IMG/VR virus record: IMGVR_UViG_3300045988_162656
From: a virus
Taxonomy: Duplodnaviria > Heunggongvirae > Uroviricota > Caudoviricetes
Length of the DNA: 64,000 bases
Strand: one strand, 5' to 3'
Below, one piece after another: positions 56,137 through 64,000 of this stretch (position 1 is the stretch's first letter; each line of letters opens with the position of its first letter). Made by a program: the position numbers and the translations under genes. The notes under the pieces are model-generated. The model made no database searches, had not been told where the DNA came from, and saw only the letters and a program-made list of their open reading frames with translations.

Positions 56137-57210
56137 GTGGATATTGTCACCATGCGCATGAATAGACTTCCAGGATATGGCCTTCCCGAACTGGCTTTTT
56201 GGCCTCAGCCTAAATATGAACGGAATAAATGGTCGATGTTCTGTCTGAAACTCCGTAATGATGGAACCCTTGCTTGGTATCGGCGATATGTTGATCGTGG
56301 TATGCCAAACCACGCTGTTGATGACGACTACGATAACTATCCTGAAGCAAGAAAAGCGGCATTAGAGCTGAATAAAAACGTGAGCTTTGACATTGAAAAA
56401 CTTCCTCTATCTATGTTTCAAAAGAAGTCATTGCGTTTGAAAGTTGACAAAGCACTCAAAGCCAAATCACGTCTCATGGATGAAGAGTATATAATGCTCA
56501 ACGAAGCAATTAAGGCACACGCCAACGATCCGCGAGTGACATTAAATGAGTTAATAATTAACCCAGATTACGAAACTTTGCGTCAACCCCTTTTTGACGT
56601 GCTAAGCGAGATGCCTTACTTACATTTTGTTTTTCTTCCCAAATTCCAAGTTTCACTTCAACTCGTTGCTCCTAACACTTGGGAATGTTCATATAACAAC
56701 AAAGCTAAGACAGCGAAGATCTGCTACCAAGAACGCATAGCCAGAGGTTTTGGTTTATCAGGTGCTGCACATTGGGGAAAAACAAAAGCGACTATTCGCT
56801 CAATGCTTCTGCCGCGTGCTAACCGGTTACTGCAACTCGCCAGCGTAAAAAGAATGCTGGATGAAGCTCTCAGGAATGGGCAAAAGGTACTGGTTGTTGG
56901 CAACTTTGTTTTCTGGTTTGAGGACAAAAATCAGGTAGGTTGGAGTGTTAAAGTTGCTAGCGAAAGCGAAACCACCTCAAGAGGCAATACGCTCTGGAAA
57001 GAAGGAACTATCATTTCAAAAAATCACGGTCGAATTGTCGTGCTGCCGTATACAAAAGAAAACGGTAAACATGTAAAAGGTTATACCAAGAATGCCCCTA
57101 ACGACGGCAATGCAATTCCGAGACATAAGGATGAGTATGTTGAGTTGCCCTTTGAAATTTTGGATGGTGACTTGATGTTCAGTCTGTTCGGTGAGCTTAA
57201 CTACGAATAG
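56137..57210 (+). CDS. hypothetical protein (plus-strand, opposite to surrounding operons)
   Basis: ORF track; start ambiguous (GTG 56137 or ATG 56152/56158); preceded by a 6-codon ORF with strong SD. Confidence 0.45.
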   Translation: MDIVTMRMNRLPGYGLPELAFWPQPKYERNKWSMFCLKLRNDGTLAWYRRYVDRGMPNHAVDDDYDNYPEARKAALELNKNVSFDIEKLPLSMFQKKSLRLKVDKALKAKSRLMDEEYIMLNEAIKAHANDPRVTLNELIINPDYETLRQPLFDVLSEMPYLHFVFLPKFQVSLQLVAPNTWECSYNNKAKTAKICYQERIARGFGLSGAAHWGKTKATIRSMLLPRANRLLQLASVKRMLDEALRNGQKVLVVGNFVFWFEDKNQVGWSVKVASESETTSRGNTLWKEGTIISKNHGRIVVLPYTKENGKHVKGYTKNAPNDGNAIPRHKDEYVELPFEILDGDLMFSLFGELNYE

Positions 57211-57270: not shown

Positions 57271-57630
57271 TCAACCTTTCTTCATTAACTCGCGTTTAAT
57301 TTCATCGGTACGCATCGTGACATCGGCAGCAGTGATCGCCTCGTTAAGCTTCACGATGTCCTCGATTTCCTGCGGTGACTTCTCTGCCAGATGGAAAATA
57401 GCAGCACGAATCACATCAGAGCGGGTGAATTTCTCGAAGCGAGGGATGAACTTCATCATCTCCAGCAGTTCGAAGTATTCGTCCTCCAGTGACATTGTGC
57501 GGCTTTTAATTTTCTCTTTGCCACGAGTCGGGCGTCCCTGTGGTCTGACTGGTTGGCGCAAAGGAGTTGTGTTCTTAGCCGGTGCATCAGACTCTTTGCG
57601 CTTTGCTAGGTCACCCATTTTCATGGACAT
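57271..57630 (-). CDS. ribbon-helix-helix partition protein (ParG/ParB-like)
   Basis: C-terminal RHH-like segment FTRSDVIRAAIFHL; immediately downstream of parA, TAATG overlap. Confidence 0.5.
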   Translation of the reverse strand: MSMKMGDLAKRKESDAPAKNTTPLRQPVRPQGRPTRGKEKIKSRTMSLEDEYFELLEMMKFIPRFEKFTRSDVIRAAIFHLAEKSPQEIEDIVKLNEAITAADVTMRTDEIKRELMKKG

Positions 57631-58298
57631 TATTCTTCTTCCTCCAGACTCAACAGATAATCTACAAATTCTTCAAACTCGGCTTCCGCCTTTTTGTCGC
57701 GCTCGCTACCGGTCATTTCAAAGATAGAACGACCAGACTCTTCCGCATCATCATAGACGTTGCGGTTATATAGATTGACTGGCGCAGACTCGATGCCAAA
57801 CGTCTCAACAATCTCTTTAGCCGCCAGAATGCGAGACACTTGTGATGGCAAAGCCGGGCACTGGTTCATGACCGCGCGGACCTTCACTTTATCGTTTACA
57901 TTGCGAACATTGTCGATAATAGGATCGATGTCACGTAAAGATTTCAAATCACGACGCTTAGGACGCAGCGGGATAATGATAACGTCAGCCATCAGCATCG
58001 CTTGTCGCTGAATTTCGGAGTCGAAGCCACCAGCATCTACCACTACAAACTCAGCTCTACCCTGAAGCGATTTTAGGTGCTTAATGATGTCATCCTGAAC
58101 GTATGCAAAAGGAATCAGCTCAAGGTCTTCGTTCTGTCGACGGTCTTCACACCAGCTCGTTGTCGTGCGCTGAATATCTATATCGGTAATATAAACCTTC
58201 TTCTTCTTTTTGACTTTCAGGCAAACGGCAATTTGCTGGGCAACGGTGGATTTGCCAGGCCCGCCCTTTGTGCCGCCAACCACAAAGATCTTGGTCAT
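57630..58298 (-). CDS. parA: ParA-family partition ATPase (small, type Ib)
   Basis: Deviant Walker A GGTKGGPGKST; 222 aa. Confidence 0.8.
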   Translation of the reverse strand: MTKIFVVGGTKGGPGKSTVAQQIAVCLKVKKKKKVYITDIDIQRTTTSWCEDRRQNEDLELIPFAYVQDDIIKHLKSLQGRAEFVVVDAGGFDSEIQRQAMLMADVIIIPLRPKRRDLKSLRDIDPIIDNVRNVNDKVKVRAVMNQCPALPSQVSRILAAKEIVETFGIESAPVNLYNRNVYDDAEESGRSIFEMTGSERDKKAEAEFEEFVDYLLSLEEEE

Positions 58299-58424
58299 TG
58301 GAGAGTTTCCTTTGCGTCTATTATTATTGTCTGAAACAACTTGTTTTCTTATATGTGATATAGCCTAAATGCCTACGGCTGCTGTGTAAAGGTTTAATGA
58401 TAGGTACATAGATTTGGTAAGGAC

Positions 58425-58456
58425 TTAATAACAAAAAACCCGCCGTAGCGGGTTTA
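58425..58456 (-). terminator. rho-independent terminator upstream of the par operon
   Basis: Stem AAACCCGC/GCGGGTTT then TTTGTTATT on minus strand. Confidence 0.75.
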
Positions 58457-58460
58457 GGAA

Positions 58461-59237
58461 TTAGTGGTTGGTAGACCTGGCATCAAATGTTGTAACGCCC
58501 ACTTCAATGTGGCGGTCTTCTTTGGAGATGATGGTGAGAATCTGACTAGATGGGTCTATGCTGACAGCCATAGGGTTCCAGTGACGTAACTGAGCCTCGC
58601 TGTTCAATAGCAGCGCATCCCACGGTTTGACGCCATTCTGCCCAATACCACCTTCAACAAGGACATCTATAAATTCTTTATTTAAATTGTCATAGATTTG
58701 GACACGACCGACCAAAAGCATACCTACAGCCCAAATTCTGGCACCGTAAACCGTCTGATGGTCATCACATACTACATGGTCATGCCAATTGAGAAGAAAA
58801 TTGTAAACTCTTCTAGCAAGTCCCTTTTGTTCCTTTGAAGGGGTTACAAATGCCCCTTTAATCTGGACCCCAAGGTGAGAGCCTTTTTGTGAGCGAAACT
58901 GGAATCGTTTGTAGACGAACCTGGCGATCTGAATGCCGTCATCATCTTCTTGCTCATCACCAACTAATTCACGAACACTATGAACTATCTCTTCTTCTGA
59001 ATGCCCCTGCTCGTCAAGATCCATTGCATGTTCTTGAAGCCAATCTGCATCAGGGTCGCCTACAAATGACACTGTCAAACAGTAATCATAATTAGACCCG
59101 ATCAAGGACCACTCTGTGAGCCGTAAAACAGAAAAATCAGAGTTAACCATGTAGCCAACTCTGATTTTCTCTCTTGCTTCACATTCAGGGAAATCAGACA
59201 GTACTTTTGAATACTCTGCTATGAATGATGGTGACAT
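58461..59237 (-). CDS. hypothetical protein
   Basis: ORF track; followed by a strong terminator. Confidence 0.5.
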   Translation of the reverse strand: MSPSFIAEYSKVLSDFPECEAREKIRVGYMVNSDFSVLRLTEWSLIGSNYDYCLTVSFVGDPDADWLQEHAMDLDEQGHSEEEIVHSVRELVGDEQEDDDGIQIARFVYKRFQFRSQKGSHLGVQIKGAFVTPSKEQKGLARRVYNFLLNWHDHVVCDDHQTVYGARIWAVGMLLVGRVQIYDNLNKEFIDVLVEGGIGQNGVKPWDALLLNSEAQLRHWNPMAVSIDPSSQILTIISKEDRHIEVGVTTFDARSTNH

Positions 59238-59636
59238 TTAGTTAGCAAGCCGCATATCCGTAGATGAATCCAGTTTCGCTATTTTAACATCTACGCGGTA
59301 TTTATCTTTGATAAATTTAGCTATTTTGCTTTCAATCTCATAGAAAGCATCCTGTTCACAACGCACAACATCGGGAAACTGTTTTTCTGGCTTAACAAGA
59401 AAACGTAACCGATTGTTGAGCACCATCATTTCTGCAAACAATTTGATGGTAAACTTGCCTTCTTCAACGTCACTTTTAAGGTTAACGATGAAACGCTGAT
59501 CCTTAAGCATACCCGGTTTGTTCATTTCACGAATTTGGAGCGAGTCATTCCAATGCCGCAACGGAACCGATGCGATCATCTTGGTACAGTCTCTTATCGT
59601 CTGAATAGAACGAGATGCGTTAAGCGCAGTATGCAT
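59238..59636 (-). CDS. hypothetical protein
   Basis: ORF track; SD AAGGTGGAAAC. Confidence 0.5.
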   Translation of the reverse strand: MHTALNASRSIQTIRDCTKMIASVPLRHWNDSLQIREMNKPGMLKDQRFIVNLKSDVEEGKFTIKLFAEMMVLNNRLRFLVKPEKQFPDVVRCEQDAFYEIESKIAKFIKDKYRVDVKIAKLDSSTDMRLAN

Positions 59637-59810
59637 GTTTCCACCTTAGCCGGTAATAACTTTATGTCATAGCGGCGACCTTGTCGGTTTAGAGGCTACG
59701 AGTATGCGTCGATTTATTAAAACAAGGTATGATTTACTTGACATCCATGCTTCAAATCTACCTTGTGCTCTAATAATATGCAAATTTTATGTTAGAAAAT
59801 TCCGCTTTTA

Positions 59811-60041
59811 TTATGGCACTTTTCTGCCCCATCCACACAATCGCTCCCCTATCATATTGTGAAAAAGTACTTCCCTTTCAGTCTCTTCGGTCATGAGATC
59901 ATCACGGCTGATGTATAGCGGTGTAGCCGCATCGCAGAAAAGCACACCAGAGGATTGAGGCTTAATCACGCAACCACTTATTGTGCAACTCATGATGAAC
60001 AGTAGAAGCATCTTTGCGCCGTAACTCATCAAGTGTTTCAT
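59811..60041 (-). CDS. Rz1-like outer-membrane spanin lipoprotein
   Basis: Signal peptide plus lipobox LLLFIMSCTISGC in a frame overlapping the 3' end of the Rz-like gene; exact start uncertain. Confidence 0.45.
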   Translation of the reverse strand: MKHLMSYGAKMLLLFIMSCTISGCVIKPQSSGVLFCDAATPLYISRDDLMTEETEREVLFHNMIGERLCGWGRKVP

Positions 60042-60213
60042 TTTTGACATCCACTGTGCTTTGAAGTCGTTTCCTGTCTTCCTGTTTTGCCTTCTCTTCC
60101 ATTGCTCGTCGCGCCGCATTTCCGCCCATCGTGTAAGCGCCGACAAGAACGAAAAGTACGGCAGCCAGCGTAATCAAAGCAACTTTTAGCTTTGTCATCA
60201 GGCTGCCTAGCAT
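59962..60213 (-). CDS. Rz-like inner-membrane spanin
   Basis: N-terminal TM helix then charged coiled coil; SD AAAGGGATGG; overlapped by Rz1-like frame. Confidence 0.55.
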   Translation of the reverse strand: MLGSLMTKLKVALITLAAVLFVLVGAYTMGGNAARRAMEEKAKQEDRKRLQSTVDVKNETLDELRRKDASTVHHELHNKWLRD

Positions 60214-60214
60214 A

Positions 60215-60907
60215 TTAGACCATCCCTTTCTGGTGTTTTCTTACCTGCGACCAGGCAATGAATCCTGCCACAACAATAGTGGCAATACCGAAGATGATGC
60301 GTACTGTATCCCCACTAGAGATATGACCTTGTGCTTTATCCATAGCAGCGGAAACCTGCGGCATAACATCGGCCAGCTGCGCCAGACCAATACCTGCTGT
60401 AACAGTTGCGCCTGCTGTTTCTTTAGTTACAGGAACAGCCTTCACGGTTTTCACCGGCTTAACGACGCCAGCTCGACGCAGACCTTCCTCAATAACTTCT
60501 GCCGCATACCAGGTGTTCAGCGTTTTTAGCGGACCTCGCCCATTCTCATGGCGAATGATTGCCTCAACCAAAGGTCGAAGAATGTCGTAATCATGCAGAT
60601 CGATAATCATGTCTGCGGTCACACCAACGGCTTTAGACACCTCATTAATGTAGGCGTCAGTGTTGTTTTCATTCGGCGGTGCCCAACGTTCAATAACTTC
60701 ACGAATGGTATCGATACTTGAGCCGTCTTTTGCGCGACGTTTGTCGTGGTAGGTAATTAGAGTCACCGCCAGCGCACGAATCCCCCAAACAGGGTCTTTA
60801 AACGTACAAAAGCGCGGTTCGTCTGGATTCGCAACCAGACCTTGCCACGGTGATCCTTTATCAAGATTACCGGGGTTATTATTACGAATGCCTCTCGGAG
60901 TCTTCAT
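60215..60907 (-). CDS. putative cell-wall hydrolase (endolysin candidate) with C-terminal membrane anchor
   Basis: Sits directly upstream of the Rz/Rz1 pair; N-terminal GIRNNNPGNL block; C-terminal hydrophobic helix IIFGIATIVVAGFIAW; function inferred from context only. Confidence 0.4.
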   Translation of the reverse strand: MKTPRGIRNNNPGNLDKGSPWQGLVANPDEPRFCTFKDPVWGIRALAVTLITYHDKRRAKDGSSIDTIREVIERWAPPNENNTDAYINEVSKAVGVTADMIIDLHDYDILRPLVEAIIRHENGRGPLKTLNTWYAAEVIEEGLRRAGVVKPVKTVKAVPVTKETAGATVTAGIGLAQLADVMPQVSAAMDKAQGHISSGDTVRIIFGIATIVVAGFIAWSQVRKHQKGMV

Positions 60908-60920
60908 CCTCAATCTCCTG

Positions 60921-61244
60921 TTATTGCAGTCCATTTTTTACGCCATACGCGGCTAACCCCAAAAGCAGTGCGGTAATAATGAACGACGTTATTTTAGAAA
61001 CAATGCCGCCAAAGAACCCACTGGAGATGGAATCTAACCGGTTAAGGAGTTTGTCAAGGTTGGAGTGTTGAATACTATGTTGCGCCGGGGTCATATCACC
61101 AAAGTAGGTTTTCAGCTGATCATTGACCTCCTGGCCAATTTCTTCACGTATCTCTTTACCTAATTTGCCAACAACCTCCCTAGCAACGATCGCGGCAATA
61201 CGCTCAACATGCTCTGTTGTAACGCCCGCCATCTCGTTCGACAT
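60921..61244 (-). CDS. small membrane protein (holin or lysis-regulator candidate)
   Basis: C-terminal TM helix; SD GGAGGAAAC; start set at MSNEM; ORF track 60921..61265 trimmed. Confidence 0.4.
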   Translation of the reverse strand: MSNEMAGVTTEHVERIAAIVAREVVGKLGKEIREEIGQEVNDQLKTYFGDMTPAQHSIQHSNLDKLLNRLDSISSGFFGGIVSKITSFIITALLLGLAAYGVKNGLQ

Positions 61245-61376
61245 GTTTCCTCCGTGAAAAGTCAAATCGGGATGGCGTGTTTATATCATATTTTAACCAT
61301 TTGTAGTAGGTGTGTACCTACCTAGCATATATCTTGCAAACTAATCGTTGTTAATAATGCAGATATAATCTGCCCC

Positions 61377-61958
61377 TTACTCTGCTGGTATTGTTGGCCA
61401 CTCAATATCAGGTGCAGTTGATGTATCAACACGGTTCAGCAACACCCGATACTTTTTCCAGGCTTCCAGCAATGAGGTTTCTTCCTCCGTTGCAATTTCC
61501 AGATCTGCAGCATCCTGAAGCGGCGCAATATGCTCACTGGCTACCTGCATCAGGTTGTTTTTTGTTTCTTCCGCCTCCCGGATCCGGAACAGTTTTTCTG
61601 CTTCCGTATCCTTCACCCAGGCTGTGCCGTTCCACTTCTGAAACTCCCCTTCCGGCGATAACCAGGTAACATTTTCCGGTAACGGACCGAGTTCAGAAAT
61701 AAATAACTCGTCCCCTGACGCTACGTCATAAACCGTTTTACCCCGATGGTCTTCAACGAGATGCCACGATGCCTCATCACTGTTGAAAACAGCCACAAAG
61801 CCAGCCGGAATATCTGGCGGTGCAATATCGGTACTGTTTGCTGGCAGACCTGTATGAGGCGGAATATATGCGTCACCTTCACCAATAAATTCATTAGTTC
61901 CGGCCAGCAGATTATAAATTTTTATGGTCCGTGGTTGTTCACTCATTCTGAATGCCAT
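61377..61958 (-). CDS. tfa: tail fibre assembly protein (lambda Tfa-like)
   Basis: N-terminus [20 protein letters not shown] and C-terminal [21 protein letters not shown] match my recollection of lambda-family Tfa proteins. Confidence 0.85.
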
Positions 61959-64000
61959 TATGCAAGCCTCACAATATAGTTAAATGCGATGTTTTTGACG
62001 GTGTTTTCCGCGTTACCAGCAGCGTTAACGGTGATGGTGTGTCCGTGTGAGCCAATCGCAACGGAGTGCGTATGAGCACCAATACCGACAGTATGTGCAT
62101 GTGCGCCTGCGCTTGCAGCAGTGCCGGACAGCGAGTGGGTATGAGCACCATCTGATGATGTCTTCCCTGCATTACGAGTCTGGCCACTACCGCTTGTTGT
62201 GCTCATAATCCCCGCGCTTAGATTTGAAATCGCGGTATAACCATTAGGGAAAATGCTCGTGTTCGTGCCACCAAATGCACCGGAACTCTTGTGTTGGTGC
62301 GCACCGGCACTATTTGCAGTCCCGCTAATACTATGGGTATGCGCCCCGGTGTTATTCGTGGATTTGGTTCCGTAATCAAACGACGATGTGTTTTTCGTCC
62401 CCAAATCCGTACTGGATGCGCTGGCGCTGTGGGTGTGCGATTTAATGCCGTCCTGTTCCTGAGACAATACGGCACGACCACTGGCGGGTTTGCCCTTAAT
62501 CGTCCAGCCACGCATATCAGGGATCACGCCTGACGGATAAGCCGCTGCAAGTTTCGGGTATGCAGATTTGTCAAAAGTCTGCCCCTGCATCAGGGCATAA
62601 CCAGACGGAACGGTATCTGATGGCCACGGGATTGGTGCACCGACTGGGTAGCTTTCTGGTGGAAGATTTTTCGAGGTATAAACTTCTGCCCAGTCTTCCT
62701 CAAAACCATAACCGTCTCTTGAAGAACGGTAGAACAGACCACCATTTCTGTAATGCGCCTTCATCTGCAGGGTCCGGCAACTTCCGACTCCGGTATAGAA
62801 GTTAACCAGAATATAGCTGTCGCCAGAGCGGGTGACTTTGTAAGCGCCTGATTCGGCATTCCAGGGAACGGCTCCATCCGAATCCGCATAAGCCCCCGTC
62901 GAACGTCGGGCAAATGCACCAATATTTTCCGGCGTGAGGTTAATATCCGCCGAGCCATCAAACTTAACACCGTTAATTTTTGGGGCTGCCGCAAGTTTCG
63001 TCGCGGTATCGGCGTTCCCCTTCAGTGCCCCGGTGATCCCATCAGTAACAGACAACGGACCTGAAATAGTCCCTCCAGTCGTTGGCAGCGCTCCAATATC
63101 TGATGGTGTAGGTTTCTGATGTGAGCTATACATCGTATAAACAACACCATAGGTAACGCTGGAAGGCTTACTCGCTGAATATGTTGGCGAGGTATAAACA
63201 GAAACTGACGCATTTGCAGTACAATCCCAATGGATATTTACACTCGTCGCATAATTGCCAATCTCAACGTAAATATCATATGTATCGCCGGATGTGTTGA
63301 TCCAGGCGAAATTCGTTAATCCGACGGCTGTACGCTTCCACAAAGCCCCGGTAATTCCTTTGGGGTTTCCATTGCCTGCTCGTAGAACCAGTTCTGAAAT
63401 GCCTGCCTGATGTGGGGAACCGACGTTGTAACCAGCGCCACCAATCAATGCGATGTAAACGATGGAACTCGCTTGTGGCATGGTAACCGTAGCCAGTTTG
63501 AACCACCCAGCCCCGCCAGAGAAAGACATCGTTACTGAATTTAAAGTACCAATATCTTTCGGCGTTAATGTTATATCCGCAGTCAATGCTTTTCCGTTAA
63601 CTTTTCGGTTAGATGGCACCCTGCTATTCGCATTGTCATTGGCTGCTTTAACTGCTTTTGGCGTTGCGGCCAGCGATTCACTGGTGCTATCAACAGCACT
63701 GCTAAGTTTCACAACACCTTTAGTTGTAAGGCTTGCGTCTTCCATCGCAACTGCACCGGCAATCTCTTCAGCACGATCAGCAGCAGCTTCCGCACGGGTC
63801 GCAGCGGATTCAGCAGTAGTTTTGCTCTGAGATGCTGCCGTCGCACTGCCTGCCGCCTCTGTTGCCTTCGTGGATGCTGTCGTGGCGCTGCCCTTCGCTG
63901 CGGACGCTTGTCTGGTCGCCTCATCTTTTGAAGCTGACGCCGATGATGCCGATGACGCCGCCGAACTGGCGGACGATGCGGCAGGCGGTTCCGCAGCCAG
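61958..64000 (-). CDS. stf: side tail fibre protein (lambda Stf-like), 5' end outside window
   Basis: Frame stays open to the window edge (ORF track starts at an internal Met, 63745); conserved [31 protein letters not shown] block; Gly/Ser/Thr-rich repeats with SAGAH..H motifs. Confidence 0.85.

What the first reader, a model, noticed from the sequence alone, without database searches (positions are those of the whole stretch)
59811..64000. Lysis cassette and lambda-type tail fibre module show mosaicism
The Tfa and Stf genes look lambda-like while the replication machinery (DnaE, primase, DnaB-like) is unrelated to lambdoid phages, implying module exchange. The lysis cassette has an endolysin candidate with a C-terminal rather than N-terminal membrane anchor, and an overlapped (not embedded) Rz/Rz1 pair.
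Basis: partly seen in the sequence, partly recalled or inferred. Interest (0 to 1): 0.4.

Follow-up and report, generated by a model that had tools for sequence, protein, structure and literature searches.

The report
Phage-plasmid lysis genes, borrowed tail fibre
This is the ordinary late-gene end of an SSU5-type phage-plasmid of E. coli: a known lysis cassette, including a known type of cell-wall enzyme with a membrane anchor at its tail end, sits next to tail-fibre genes swapped in from lambda-like prophages, and all of these features are already described.

Summary
All genes in window 59811-64000 lie on the minus strand. In order they are a side tail fibre gene (cut by the window end), tfa, a 107-aa holin-like gene, a 230-aa endolysin, and an overlapped i-spanin/o-spanin pair.

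- **Backbone:** it is an SSU5-type phage-plasmid, 97.7% nt identical to Escherichia phage PhiR41_1. It carries DnaE, primase, a DnaB-like helicase and ParA.
- **Tail fibre:** Tfa is 95% identical to lambda Tfa. The whole in-window stf-tfa stretch is 97.4% nt identical, in one piece, to a chromosomal lambdoid prophage. SSU5-type backbone homology stops sharply at 61324.
- **Endolysin:** it belongs to the published Enc34/M4Lys type. The catalytic domain matches PDB 7Q47 (E=2.6e-54), the catalytic Glu/Trp/Tyr are conserved, and the C-terminal two-helix membrane domain is conserved.
- **Spanins:** the o-spanin belongs to the phage Chi family. Overlapped spanins are the commonest architecture.
- **Holin-like gene:** it is specific to SSU5-type elements and has no detectable homology to the Chi-type partner.

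How this endolysin type crosses the membrane is an open question already stated in the literature.

The parts
61958..64000 (-). Side tail fibre gene (stf), 3' part only. The frame is open to the window end (at least 680 aa), with a C-terminal HxH-rich tip.
   Evidence: Translation has no stop. Pfam Phage_fiber_2, Collar and Phage_fiber. 69% aa identity to lambda orf-314 over 252 aligned positions, Stf residues 450-680. Seven HxH motifs. 61396-63990 is 97.4% nt identical in one piece to the E. coli MS15047 lambdoid prophage stf-tfa.
61377..61958 (-). Tail fibre assembly gene (tfa), 193 aa. Its ATG overlaps the stf stop by 1 nt, as in lambda.
   Evidence: Caudo_TAP E=2.9e-44. phrog_105 E=1.5e-100. 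95% aa identity to lambda Tfa.
61395..62880 (.). Block of 95-100% nt identity to lambdoid phages (ev099 throughout, lambda for tfa). It covers tfa and the distal half of stf.
   Evidence: blastn map and 100-bp identity profile.
61325..61394 (.). Junction segment between the SSU5-type backbone and the lambdoid block. It holds the last 6 codons of tfa plus the 3' flank, and is shared only with the pCUVET18-789.1-type SSU5-like plasmids that also carry a tfa next to the lysis cassette.
   Evidence: Multiple alignment of the junction. 96% identity to pCUVET18-789.1 in 61301-61400.
60921..61244 (-). Holin-like gene, 107 aa. It has a soluble charged N-terminal part and a single C-terminal TMD (about 60939-60989). 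It is a holin candidate by position only.
   Evidence: GGAGG Shine-Dalgarno sequence 5 nt upstream of the ATG. Hydropathy. phrog_5093, unknown function. Annotated 'putative holin' in SSU5 and 'Holin' in Cyrano. Found only in SSU5-type elements.
60215..60907 (-). Endolysin of the Enc34/M4Lys type, 230 aa. The catalytic domain is about 60458-60907. The linker and amphipathic helix are about 60302-60457. The distal TMD is about 60245-60301, followed by a dibasic tail.
   Evidence: PDB 7Q47 (Enc34 ORF39 catalytic domain) E=2.6e-54. phrog_873 endolysin E=6e-89. Full-length 51-58% identity to Chi-like phage endolysins, with E121, W75 and Y86 invariant. AF2 pLDDT is 80-96 for most of residues 31-150; helices 178-192 and 199-226.
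59962..60213 (-). i-spanin, 83 aa, with an N-terminal TMD (about 60130-60192) and a short periplasmic domain of about 55 aa.
   Evidence: phrog_1026 Rz-like spanin E=1.7e-23. Hydropathy. Weak similarity to the Chi-like i-spanin, E=4e-4.
59811..60041 (-). o-spanin, 76 aa precursor, lipobox I-S-G-C at 59970-59981, mature lipoprotein 53 aa. The +1-frame overlap with the i-spanin gene is 80 nt. Alternative starts lie at 60050, 60029 and 60011.
   Evidence: phrog_1275 Rz-like spanin E=1.1e-22. 41% identity to the Chi-like (SPN19) o-spanin, E=5e-18. The lipobox and a basic n-region are conserved in SSU5, Cyrano, PhiR41_1 and pCUVET18-789.1.

Best explanation
The region is the late-gene end of an SSU5-type phage-plasmid of E. 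coli, transcribed right to left.

**Tail fibre.** The distal part of the side tail fibre gene and its assembly chaperone gene (tfa) were exchanged by homologous recombination with lambda-like prophages. These fibre genes are a shared pool in E. coli. This changes the receptor-binding tip while keeping the part of the fibre that fits the SSU5-type tail.

**Lysis cassette.** Downstream lies the lineage's own lysis cassette.
1. A small tail-anchored membrane protein occupies the holin position.
2. An Enc34/M4Lys-type endolysin follows. Its N-terminal all-helical glycosidase domain (catalytic Glu121) cuts murein. Its conserved C-terminal two-helix membrane domain tethers it to the inner membrane and is needed for the enzyme to reach the wall.
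3. An i-spanin/o-spanin pair then disrupts the outer membrane.

**Shown versus inferred.** Shown here are gene identities, homologies, junction positions and conservation. Taken from experiments on homologues are muralytic activity, the TMD-dependent, holin- and Sec-independent lysis by M4Lys, and the toxicity of full-length Enc34 ORF39. Inferred are that the 107-aa protein times or assists lysis, and that the exchanged fibre tip sets host range.
For: - **Backbone:** 97.7% nt identity to phage PhiR41_1 over 58000-61324 and 79-93% to SSU5 and Cyrano, with the same gene order tail fibre, holin, endolysin, Rz, Rz1, ParA. DnaE, DnaB-like helicase, primase and ParA are present.
- **Exchange:** there are sharp identity breaks at 61324/61395. 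Tfa is 95% identical to lambda Tfa. A one-piece 97.4% match to a lambdoid prophage covers 2.6 kb. 5267 of 5426 complete E. coli genomes carry matching sequence.
- **Endolysin:** 7Q47 E=2.6e-54. The catalytic Glu/Trp/Tyr are conserved and the C-terminal domain is strongly conserved across 35 homologues at 56-90% identity.
- **Experiments on homologues:** PMC8943055 and PMC7143992.
- **Spanins:** PHROG hits, a lipobox conserved in relatives, o-spanin homology to Chi-like phages, and SSU5 listed in the Chi o-spanin family (PMC6139136).
Against: - No experiment exists on this element.
- The holin call rests on position and one TMD only. There is no homology to any characterised holin or to the Chi-type lysis protein B.
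- The membrane topology of the endolysin cannot be decided in silico. The dibasic C-terminal tail favours C-in, which would place either a hairpin or the whole N-terminal domain outside. The AF2 confidence for the C-terminal domain is low.
- The direction and number of recombination events are not resolved. The fibre gene is a fine patchwork with several best relatives.
Confidence: 0.88

Rival explanations
1. The 230-aa protein is a virion-associated (ejection) peptidoglycan hydrolase or structural protein, not the endolysin. The true endolysin would lie elsewhere in the genome.
For: The catalytic domain also occurs inside internal virion proteins, tape-measure proteins and injection transglycosylases (phrog_7182, phrog_2276 and phrog_992; PDB 9VVP Gp29; T7-like internal virion protein D hits). 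Public annotations include 'structural protein P5' and 'internal (core) protein'.
Against: It sits between the holin-like gene and the spanins. It is full-length homologous, including the TMD, to M4Lys/Enc34-type proteins that lyse or kill E. coli when expressed alone. It is a small single-domain protein with a membrane anchor, unlike the large virion proteins.
Confidence: 0.04
2. The apparent mosaic is an assembly chimera that joins a phage-plasmid contig to a chromosomal lambdoid prophage through shared fibre repeats.
For: No record in the phage, plasmid or complete E. coli genome collections carries this exact 5-kb combination at high identity. The best full-length matches are about 86% identical, and the best high-identity match covers 69%.
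Against: Complete circular SSU5-like plasmids (pCUVET18-789.1 and two others) have the same order stf, tfa, holin-like, endolysin. Their homology is continuous across the junction and 96% identical in 61301-61400. The proximal in-window stf (63101-64000) is 91-100% identical to the SSU5-type phage Cyrano fibre. Reading frames are intact through both junctions.
Confidence: 0.03
3. The endolysin's C-terminal domain is itself the membrane-lesion device, making the protein a built-in holin/pinholin-endolysin fusion. The 107-aa upstream protein would then be only a timing regulator (antiholin-like) or unrelated to lysis.
For: - M4Lys alone lyses E. coli. This lysis is azide-insensitive and needs the last 13 residues, and the TMD alone is bacteriostatic (PMC7143992).
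- The C-terminal domain is far more conserved than a simple anchor would need: PVTKET, G174, Q177, S198-G199, G207/A214/A218, Q221 and a dibasic tail.
- The upstream partner is non-homologous between Chi-type and SSU5-type cassettes.
Against: - The lysis data come from strong over-expression, and the authors say so themselves.
- The same endolysin type is found behind a canonical Phage_holin_3_3 holin in other elements.
- The holin-like gene is highly conserved and always adjacent in SSU5-type elements.
- No pore has been shown.
Confidence: 0.3

Closest known systems
Enc34 ORF39 / M4Lys (BSPM4) / Siskin-type endolysins of Chi-like siphophages (PHA02564 catalytic domain plus C-terminal TMD)
   Same: Homology is full-length at 51-58% identity. 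The catalytic Glu/Trp/Tyr are the same, as are the linker, the amphipathic helix and the distal TMD with its dibasic tail. The position is also the same, directly upstream of an overlapped spanin pair whose o-spanin is homologous.
   Different: The host element is a roughly 110-kb phage-plasmid rather than a 60-kb flagellotropic virulent siphophage. The upstream partner has a C-terminal TMD and is not homologous to the Chi-type lysis protein B, which has an N-terminal TMD. The Enc34 paper described the architecture as limited to Chivirus and relatives. Here it is seen throughout SSU5-type elements of many Enterobacterales.
Salmonella phage SSU5 lysis cassette (SSU5_026-030) and E. coli relatives PhiR41_1 and Cyrano
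   Same: The gene order and sizes match (324, 693 and 252 nt, plus an overlapped o-spanin). The endolysin is identical to PhiR41_1's over the 229 residues aligned and 94% identical to SSU5's.
   Different: SSU5 carries a different fibre tip with an adhesin, a Lom-like gene and Cor between fibre and holin. Cyrano has a P1 S-like fibre and no tfa. The window has a lambda-type stf-tfa instead.
Lambda side tail fibre module stf-tfa (orf-401/orf-314/orf-194) and its homologues in E. coli lambdoid and cryptic prophages
   Same: Tfa is 95% identical. The stf stop and tfa start overlap by 1 nt, as in lambda. The HxH-rich C-terminal tip is 69% identical to lambda's. The match to an MS15047 prophage module is 97.4% nt.
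   Different: The module sits in a non-lambdoid replicon next to a lysis cassette, not next to the b region. The middle of the fibre (fragment residues about 130-450) is absent from lambda itself. The N-terminus is outside the window.
SAR endolysins (P1 Lyz, phage 21 R21)
   Same: These are also membrane-tethered muralytic enzymes. The weakly hydrophobic Gly/Ala/Thr-rich helix (residues about 165-192) is reminiscent of a SAR domain.
   Different: The membrane domain is C-terminal, not N-terminal. There is no signal-like N-terminus. Export of the homologue M4Lys is azide-insensitive. It is therefore not a member.

Membership tests
Enc34/M4Lys-type endolysin | N-terminal catalytic domain homologous to Enc34 ORF39 (PHA02564; PDB 7Q47) | tested here: met
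   phmmer E=2.6e-54, residues 3-151 against chain residues 6-168.
Enc34/M4Lys-type endolysin | Catalytic Glu (Enc34 Glu131) with the conserved Trp79 and Tyr95 equivalents | tested here: met
   E121, W75 and Y86 are invariant in 35 homologues. Their positions map onto the 7Q47 alignment with a constant +1 offset. Residue roles come from PMC8943055.
Enc34/M4Lys-type endolysin | C-terminal membrane domain (proximal amphipathic helix plus distal TMD with a positively charged tail) and no N-terminal signal | tested here: met
   Hydropathy shows only a C-terminal segment. The alignment with Chi-like endolysins runs through the C-terminus. Tail net charge is mostly +2 to +3. AF2 gives helices 178-192 and 199-226.
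Enc34/M4Lys-type endolysin | Muralytic activity, and TMD-dependent lysis on expression | not testable with these tools
   Shown only for the homologues Enc34 ORF39deltaC and M4Lys.
Two-component spanin, overlapped architecture | i-spanin with an N-terminal TMD and a periplasmic C-terminal domain | tested here: met
   Hydropathy windows covering residues 1-34. phrog_1026 E=1.7e-23.
Two-component spanin, overlapped architecture | o-spanin with a lipoprotein signal and lipobox Cys | tested here: met
   MKHLMSYGAKMLLLFIMSCTISG|C. The lipobox is conserved in four relatives. phrog_1275 E=1.1e-22.
Two-component spanin, overlapped architecture | The o-spanin gene starts inside the i-spanin gene in another frame and extends beyond its stop | tested here: met
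   Start at 60041, i-spanin stop at 59962-59964, o-spanin end at 59811, +1 frame, 80-nt overlap.
Lambda Tfa family (Caudo_TAP) | PF02413 domain and a position immediately downstream of the fibre gene | tested here: met
   E=2.9e-44. 95% identity to lambda Tfa. 1-nt overlap with stf.
Lambda Stf-type side tail fibre | C-terminal HxH-repeat tip and collar domain homologous to lambda Stf | tested here: met
   69% identity over 252 aligned positions, Stf residues 450-680. Collar E=3e-12. Seven HxH motifs.
Lambda Stf-type side tail fibre | N-terminal tail-attachment domain | not testable with these tools
   The 5' end of the gene lies beyond the window end.
SSU5-type phage-plasmid | Backbone with DnaE, DnaB-like helicase, primase and ParA, and nucleotide similarity to SSU5-group genomes | tested here: met
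   for the genes. for similarity (PhiR41_1 97.7%, SSU5 79-86%). 521 of 536 matching plasmids are non-mobilizable, and those listed are about 107-117 kb, apart from one of 163 kb.
Holin | Small membrane protein with at least one TMD encoded next to the endolysin | tested here: met
   107 aa, one C-terminal TMD, directly upstream of the endolysin.
Holin | Homology to a characterised holin family, or demonstrated hole formation | tested here: not met
   No Pfam or NCBIfam hit. phrog_5093 has unknown function. No similarity to the Chi-type lysis protein B. Function is untested.
SAR endolysin | N-terminal weakly hydrophobic signal-anchor-release domain | tested here: not met
   The N-terminus is hydrophilic (MKTPRGIRNNNPGN). 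The only TMD is C-terminal.

The most novel reading that the evidence does not exclude
The SSU5-type cassette may pair a self-delivering endolysin with a lineage-specific tail-anchored partner. In this reading the endolysin's strongly conserved C-terminal two-helix domain acts as a built-in pinholin-like device. The partner (phrog_5093) has replaced the non-homologous Chi-type lysis protein B. It would then be a new class of lysis-timing regulator rather than a holin.
Probability: 0.15. Interest if true: 0.5.

Novelty: already known. Interest (0 to 1): 0.15.

Why it matters
It matters little beyond correct annotation.

- It shows that the Enc34/M4Lys endolysin architecture is the standard endolysin of SSU5-type phage-plasmids across Enterobacterales, not only of Chi-like phages.
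- Public records often mis-annotate it ('structural protein', 'membrane protein', 'hypothetical') and truncate the o-spanin so that its lipobox is lost.
- The stf-tfa swap is a clean example of host-range modules moving between integrated lambdoid prophages and plasmid-borne phages that often carry resistance genes. This is relevant to predicting the host range of such elements.
- How a C-terminally anchored endolysin reaches the periplasm remains an open question. These elements offer a second, inducible system in which to study it.

Tried and rejected
1. **Is the SSU5-type holin-like protein a permuted homologue of the Chi-type lysis protein B?** A MAFFT alignment suggested shared residues. 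BLASTP (E=16) and hhalign (probability 0.2%) show no relationship, so this is rejected.
2. **Is the invariant 'ISSG' just before the TMD, shared by the holin-like protein and the endolysin, a sign of common origin or interaction?** hhalign of the two C-terminal regions gives probability 0.1% and only a 6-residue match. It is not significant.
3. **Promoter and terminator scan of 59500-62100.** Nothing was found on the minus strand and counts were below the shuffle expectation. No regulatory element can be named at the junction.
4. **Pfam and NCBIfam on the lysis proteins.** There were no significant hits for the endolysin, the holin-like protein or the o-spanin. Identification needed PHROGs, PDB sequences and the literature.
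5. **AF2 model of the full endolysin.** The catalytic domain is confident. The C-terminal domain has low confidence (pLDDT about 40-69), so it does not settle hairpin versus single-span topology. No fold search was run, because a solved homologue exists.
6. **Dual-start motif in the holin-like gene (MSNEM).** The second Met is absent from the Providencia homologue (MANRVGELT) and from several database homologues. It is not taken as a holin/antiholin pair.
7. **Literature search for lysis studies on SSU5-type elements.** None was found.


Full report
**What is there**

All genes in window 59811-64000 lie on the minus strand. Reading right to left they are:

| Gene | Coordinates | Size | Key evidence |
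|---|---|---|---|
| Side tail fibre (stf) | 61958-64000 | at least 680 aa; frame open to the window end | |
| tfa | 61377-61958 | 193 aa; ATG overlaps the stf stop by 1 nt | |
| Holin-like | 60921-61244 | 107 aa; GGAGG 5 nt upstream of the ATG | |
| Endolysin | 60215-60907 | 230 aa; start at the ATG behind AGGAG/GAGG, not the upstream ATG of the 239-aa ORF | |
| i-spanin | 59962-60213 | 83 aa | |
| o-spanin | 59811-60041 | 76 aa; lipobox ISG\|C | |

The o-spanin is in the +1 frame. It begins 80 nt before the i-spanin stop and runs 151 nt beyond it. Hydropathy gives one TMD at the N-terminus of the i-spanin, one at the C-terminus of the holin-like protein, and one at the C-terminus of the endolysin.

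**What element this is**

- The window carries a Pol III alpha (DnaE) gene, a DnaB-like helicase, ribonucleotide reductase, CobT/AAA_5, an ATP-dependent ligase and an SMC-like ATPase. It also carries a primase and ParA.
- Window 58000-61324 is 97.7% identical to Escherichia phage PhiR41_1 and 97.0% to plasmid NZ_CP062814. The lysis cassette is 93% identical to phage Cyrano and 79% to Salmonella phage SSU5.
- The gene order tail fibre, holin, endolysin, Rz, Rz1, unknown genes, ParA is that of SSU5 and Cyrano.
- 536 plasmids match, 521 of them non-mobilizable. Those listed are about 107-117 kb, apart from one of 163 kb.
- It is therefore an SSU5-type phage-plasmid.

**Tail fibre module**

- Tfa has the Caudo_TAP domain (E=2.9e-44) and is 182/191 identical to lambda Tfa.
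- The C-terminal 230 aa of Stf are 69% identical to lambda orf-314. A proximal Ala/Ser-rich stretch is 66% identical to the end of orf-401. The middle is absent from lambda.
- Stf carries seven HxH motifs, against eight in lambda orf-314. From my own knowledge, these are the iron-binding motifs of the T4 gp37 / lambda Stf fibre tip.
- At the DNA level, all SSU5-type matches stop at exactly 61324.
- Lambdoid matches begin at 61395 (lambda 95% over tfa; ev099 95.9% over 61395-62971).
- The 70 bp in between are shared only with pCUVET18-789.1-type SSU5-like plasmids, which also have a tfa beside the cassette.
- A 100-bp identity profile shows the fibre gene to be a fine patchwork:
  - 61401-62800: ev099-like.
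  - 62801-63500: pCUVET-like.
  - 63101-64000: Cyrano-like.
- Against complete E. coli genomes, 61396-63990 matches the chromosome of strain MS15047 in one piece at 97.4%.
- That match lies in a prophage next to trp/ompW with the lambda order tape measure, M, L, K, I, J, lom, stf, tfa.
- 5267 of 5426 genomes contain matching sequence.
- The module is thus drawn from the common lambdoid fibre pool. Exchange of fibre genes among unrelated coliphages (lambda, P2, P1, Mu, T4) has been textbook knowledge since the early 1990s (my own knowledge).
- An assembly chimera is unlikely. Complete circular plasmids have the same arrangement with continuous homology across the junction.

**Endolysin**

- Pfam and NCBIfam find nothing. 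PHROGs gives phrog_873 'endolysin' (E=6e-89).
- The PDB sequence search gives 7Q47 with E=2.6e-54. This is the catalytic domain of Hafnia phage Enc34 ORF39 (PMC8943055).
[quoted passage not shown] - The equivalents here are E121, W75 and Y86. They are invariant in 35 homologues.
- The homologue M4Lys of Salmonella phage BSPM4 has the following published properties (PMC7143992):
  - It lyses E. coli when expressed alone.
  - It is insensitive to azide.
  - It needs its C-terminal TMD.
  - It shows N-acetylglucosaminidase activity.
- tblastn shows full-length homologues at about 50-55% identity in Chi-like phages. The catalytic domain alone also occurs in internal virion proteins and Mu-like Pseudomonas phage endolysins.
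- The protein database holds 1934 relatives with E<=1e-10. Most of the top 120 are about 230 aa, and many of these lie on contigs of about 100-114 kb from Cronobacter, Klebsiella, Xenorhabdus, Providencia, Photorhabdus and Salmonella.
- The C-terminal 70 residues are strongly conserved:
  - a PVTKET motif;
  - G174, Q177 and A188;
  - S198-G199;
  - G207, A214 and A218;
  - Q221 followed by a dibasic tail.
- AF2 models most of residues 31-150 (the core of the catalytic domain) at pLDDT 80-96. It predicts helices 178-192 and 199-226 with low confidence.
How its catalytic domain reaches the murein is an open question already stated by the authors.

**Spanins**

- PHROGs label both proteins as Rz-like spanins.
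- The o-spanin is 41% identical (E=5e-18) to that of Chi-like phage SPN19. The i-spanin is only weakly similar.
- This matches Kongari et al. 2018, who placed the SSU5 o-spanin in the Chi family and its i-spanin as a singleton. They counted 228 overlapped, 182 embedded and 118 separated systems (PMC6139136).
- The lipobox and a basic n-region are conserved in SSU5, Cyrano, PhiR41_1 and pCUVET18-789.1.
- The GenBank annotations of Cyrano (39 aa) and PhiR41_1 (52 aa) start after the lipobox, so they miss the signal peptide.
- The overlap encodes the o-spanin signal peptide and the first residues of the mature lipoprotein; the remaining about 50 mature residues lie downstream of the i-spanin stop.

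**Holin-like gene**

- The 107-aa protein (phrog_5093, unknown function) occurs only in SSU5-type elements. There are 12 phage records, all at 85% identity or more, 29 protein clusters, and a divergent homologue in a Providencia phage-plasmid.
- It shows no relationship to the Chi-type lysis protein B, which has its TMD at the N-terminus.
- The holin assignment is positional.
- In other elements the same endolysin type follows a canonical Phage_holin_3_3 holin.

**Mechanism and confidence**

1. Late transcription produces the fibre and its chaperone. The exchanged tip presumably sets receptor specificity (inferred).
2. The endolysin accumulates tethered to the inner membrane through its C-terminal domain.
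3. Access to murein follows membrane permeabilisation or depolarisation. This comes from the holin-like protein, from the endolysin's own membrane domain, or from both.
4. The spanin complex then removes the outer membrane barrier.

I put 0.88 on the identification as a whole. I put about 0.3 on the variant in which the C-terminal domain is itself the lesion-forming device.

**Verdict**

Interest is low.

Noticed in passing
window 58461-59636, compared with L002 3131-3965 and L007 4167-4965: The slot between parA and the spanins is variable. The window has two genes of unknown function (phrog_3307, phrog_2594). Cyrano and pCUVET18-789.1 carry a DUF1778/GNAT (KacAT-like) toxin-antitoxin pair there instead.
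   Followed up: partly
window 57271-57630 (-): This 119-aa gene directly downstream of parA (phrog_5111, unknown function) is annotated 'RelE/ParE putative toxin' in Cyrano. By position it could instead be the partition adaptor protein.
   Followed up: no
L002 3998-4117; L005 6812-6970; L008 1650-1988: Public annotations of the o-spanin in Cyrano (39 aa) and PhiR41_1 (52 aa) start after the lipobox Cys, so they lack the signal peptide. In SPN19 the lysis protein B gene is labelled 'Rz-like spanin'.
   Followed up: yes
L013 and L014 1911-3947: In two metagenome contigs an Enc34-type endolysin (59% identical) sits behind a canonical Phage_holin_3_3 (PF16083) holin. In one contig a LysC-like lipoprotein is also present. 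An 83-aa i-spanin-sized gene follows the endolysin.
   Followed up: partly
window about 60100 (inside the i-spanin gene): There is a minor mosaic boundary within the lysis cassette. Cyrano is 96-100% identical from 60101 to 61200 but only 73-80% from 59801 to 60100. The periplasmic part of the i-spanin and the o-spanin therefore vary together.
   Followed up: partly
L007 7141-8043: pCUVET18-789.1 has a 300-aa 'macro domain-containing protein' gene inserted between the tail fibre gene and tfa. It is absent from the window.
   Followed up: no
window 60215-60457 (endolysin residues 151-230): The linker and membrane domain carry invariant motifs across 35 homologues at 56-90% identity (PVTKET, G174, Q177, A188, S198-G199, G207/A214/A218, Q221 and a dibasic tail). 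This is more constraint than a passive anchor needs.
   Followed up: partly
window 56137-57210 (+): This is the only plus-strand gene in the neighbourhood (357 aa from a GTG start, phrog_22329, unknown function). Relatives annotate a 255-aa product, so the true start is probably further downstream.
   Followed up: no
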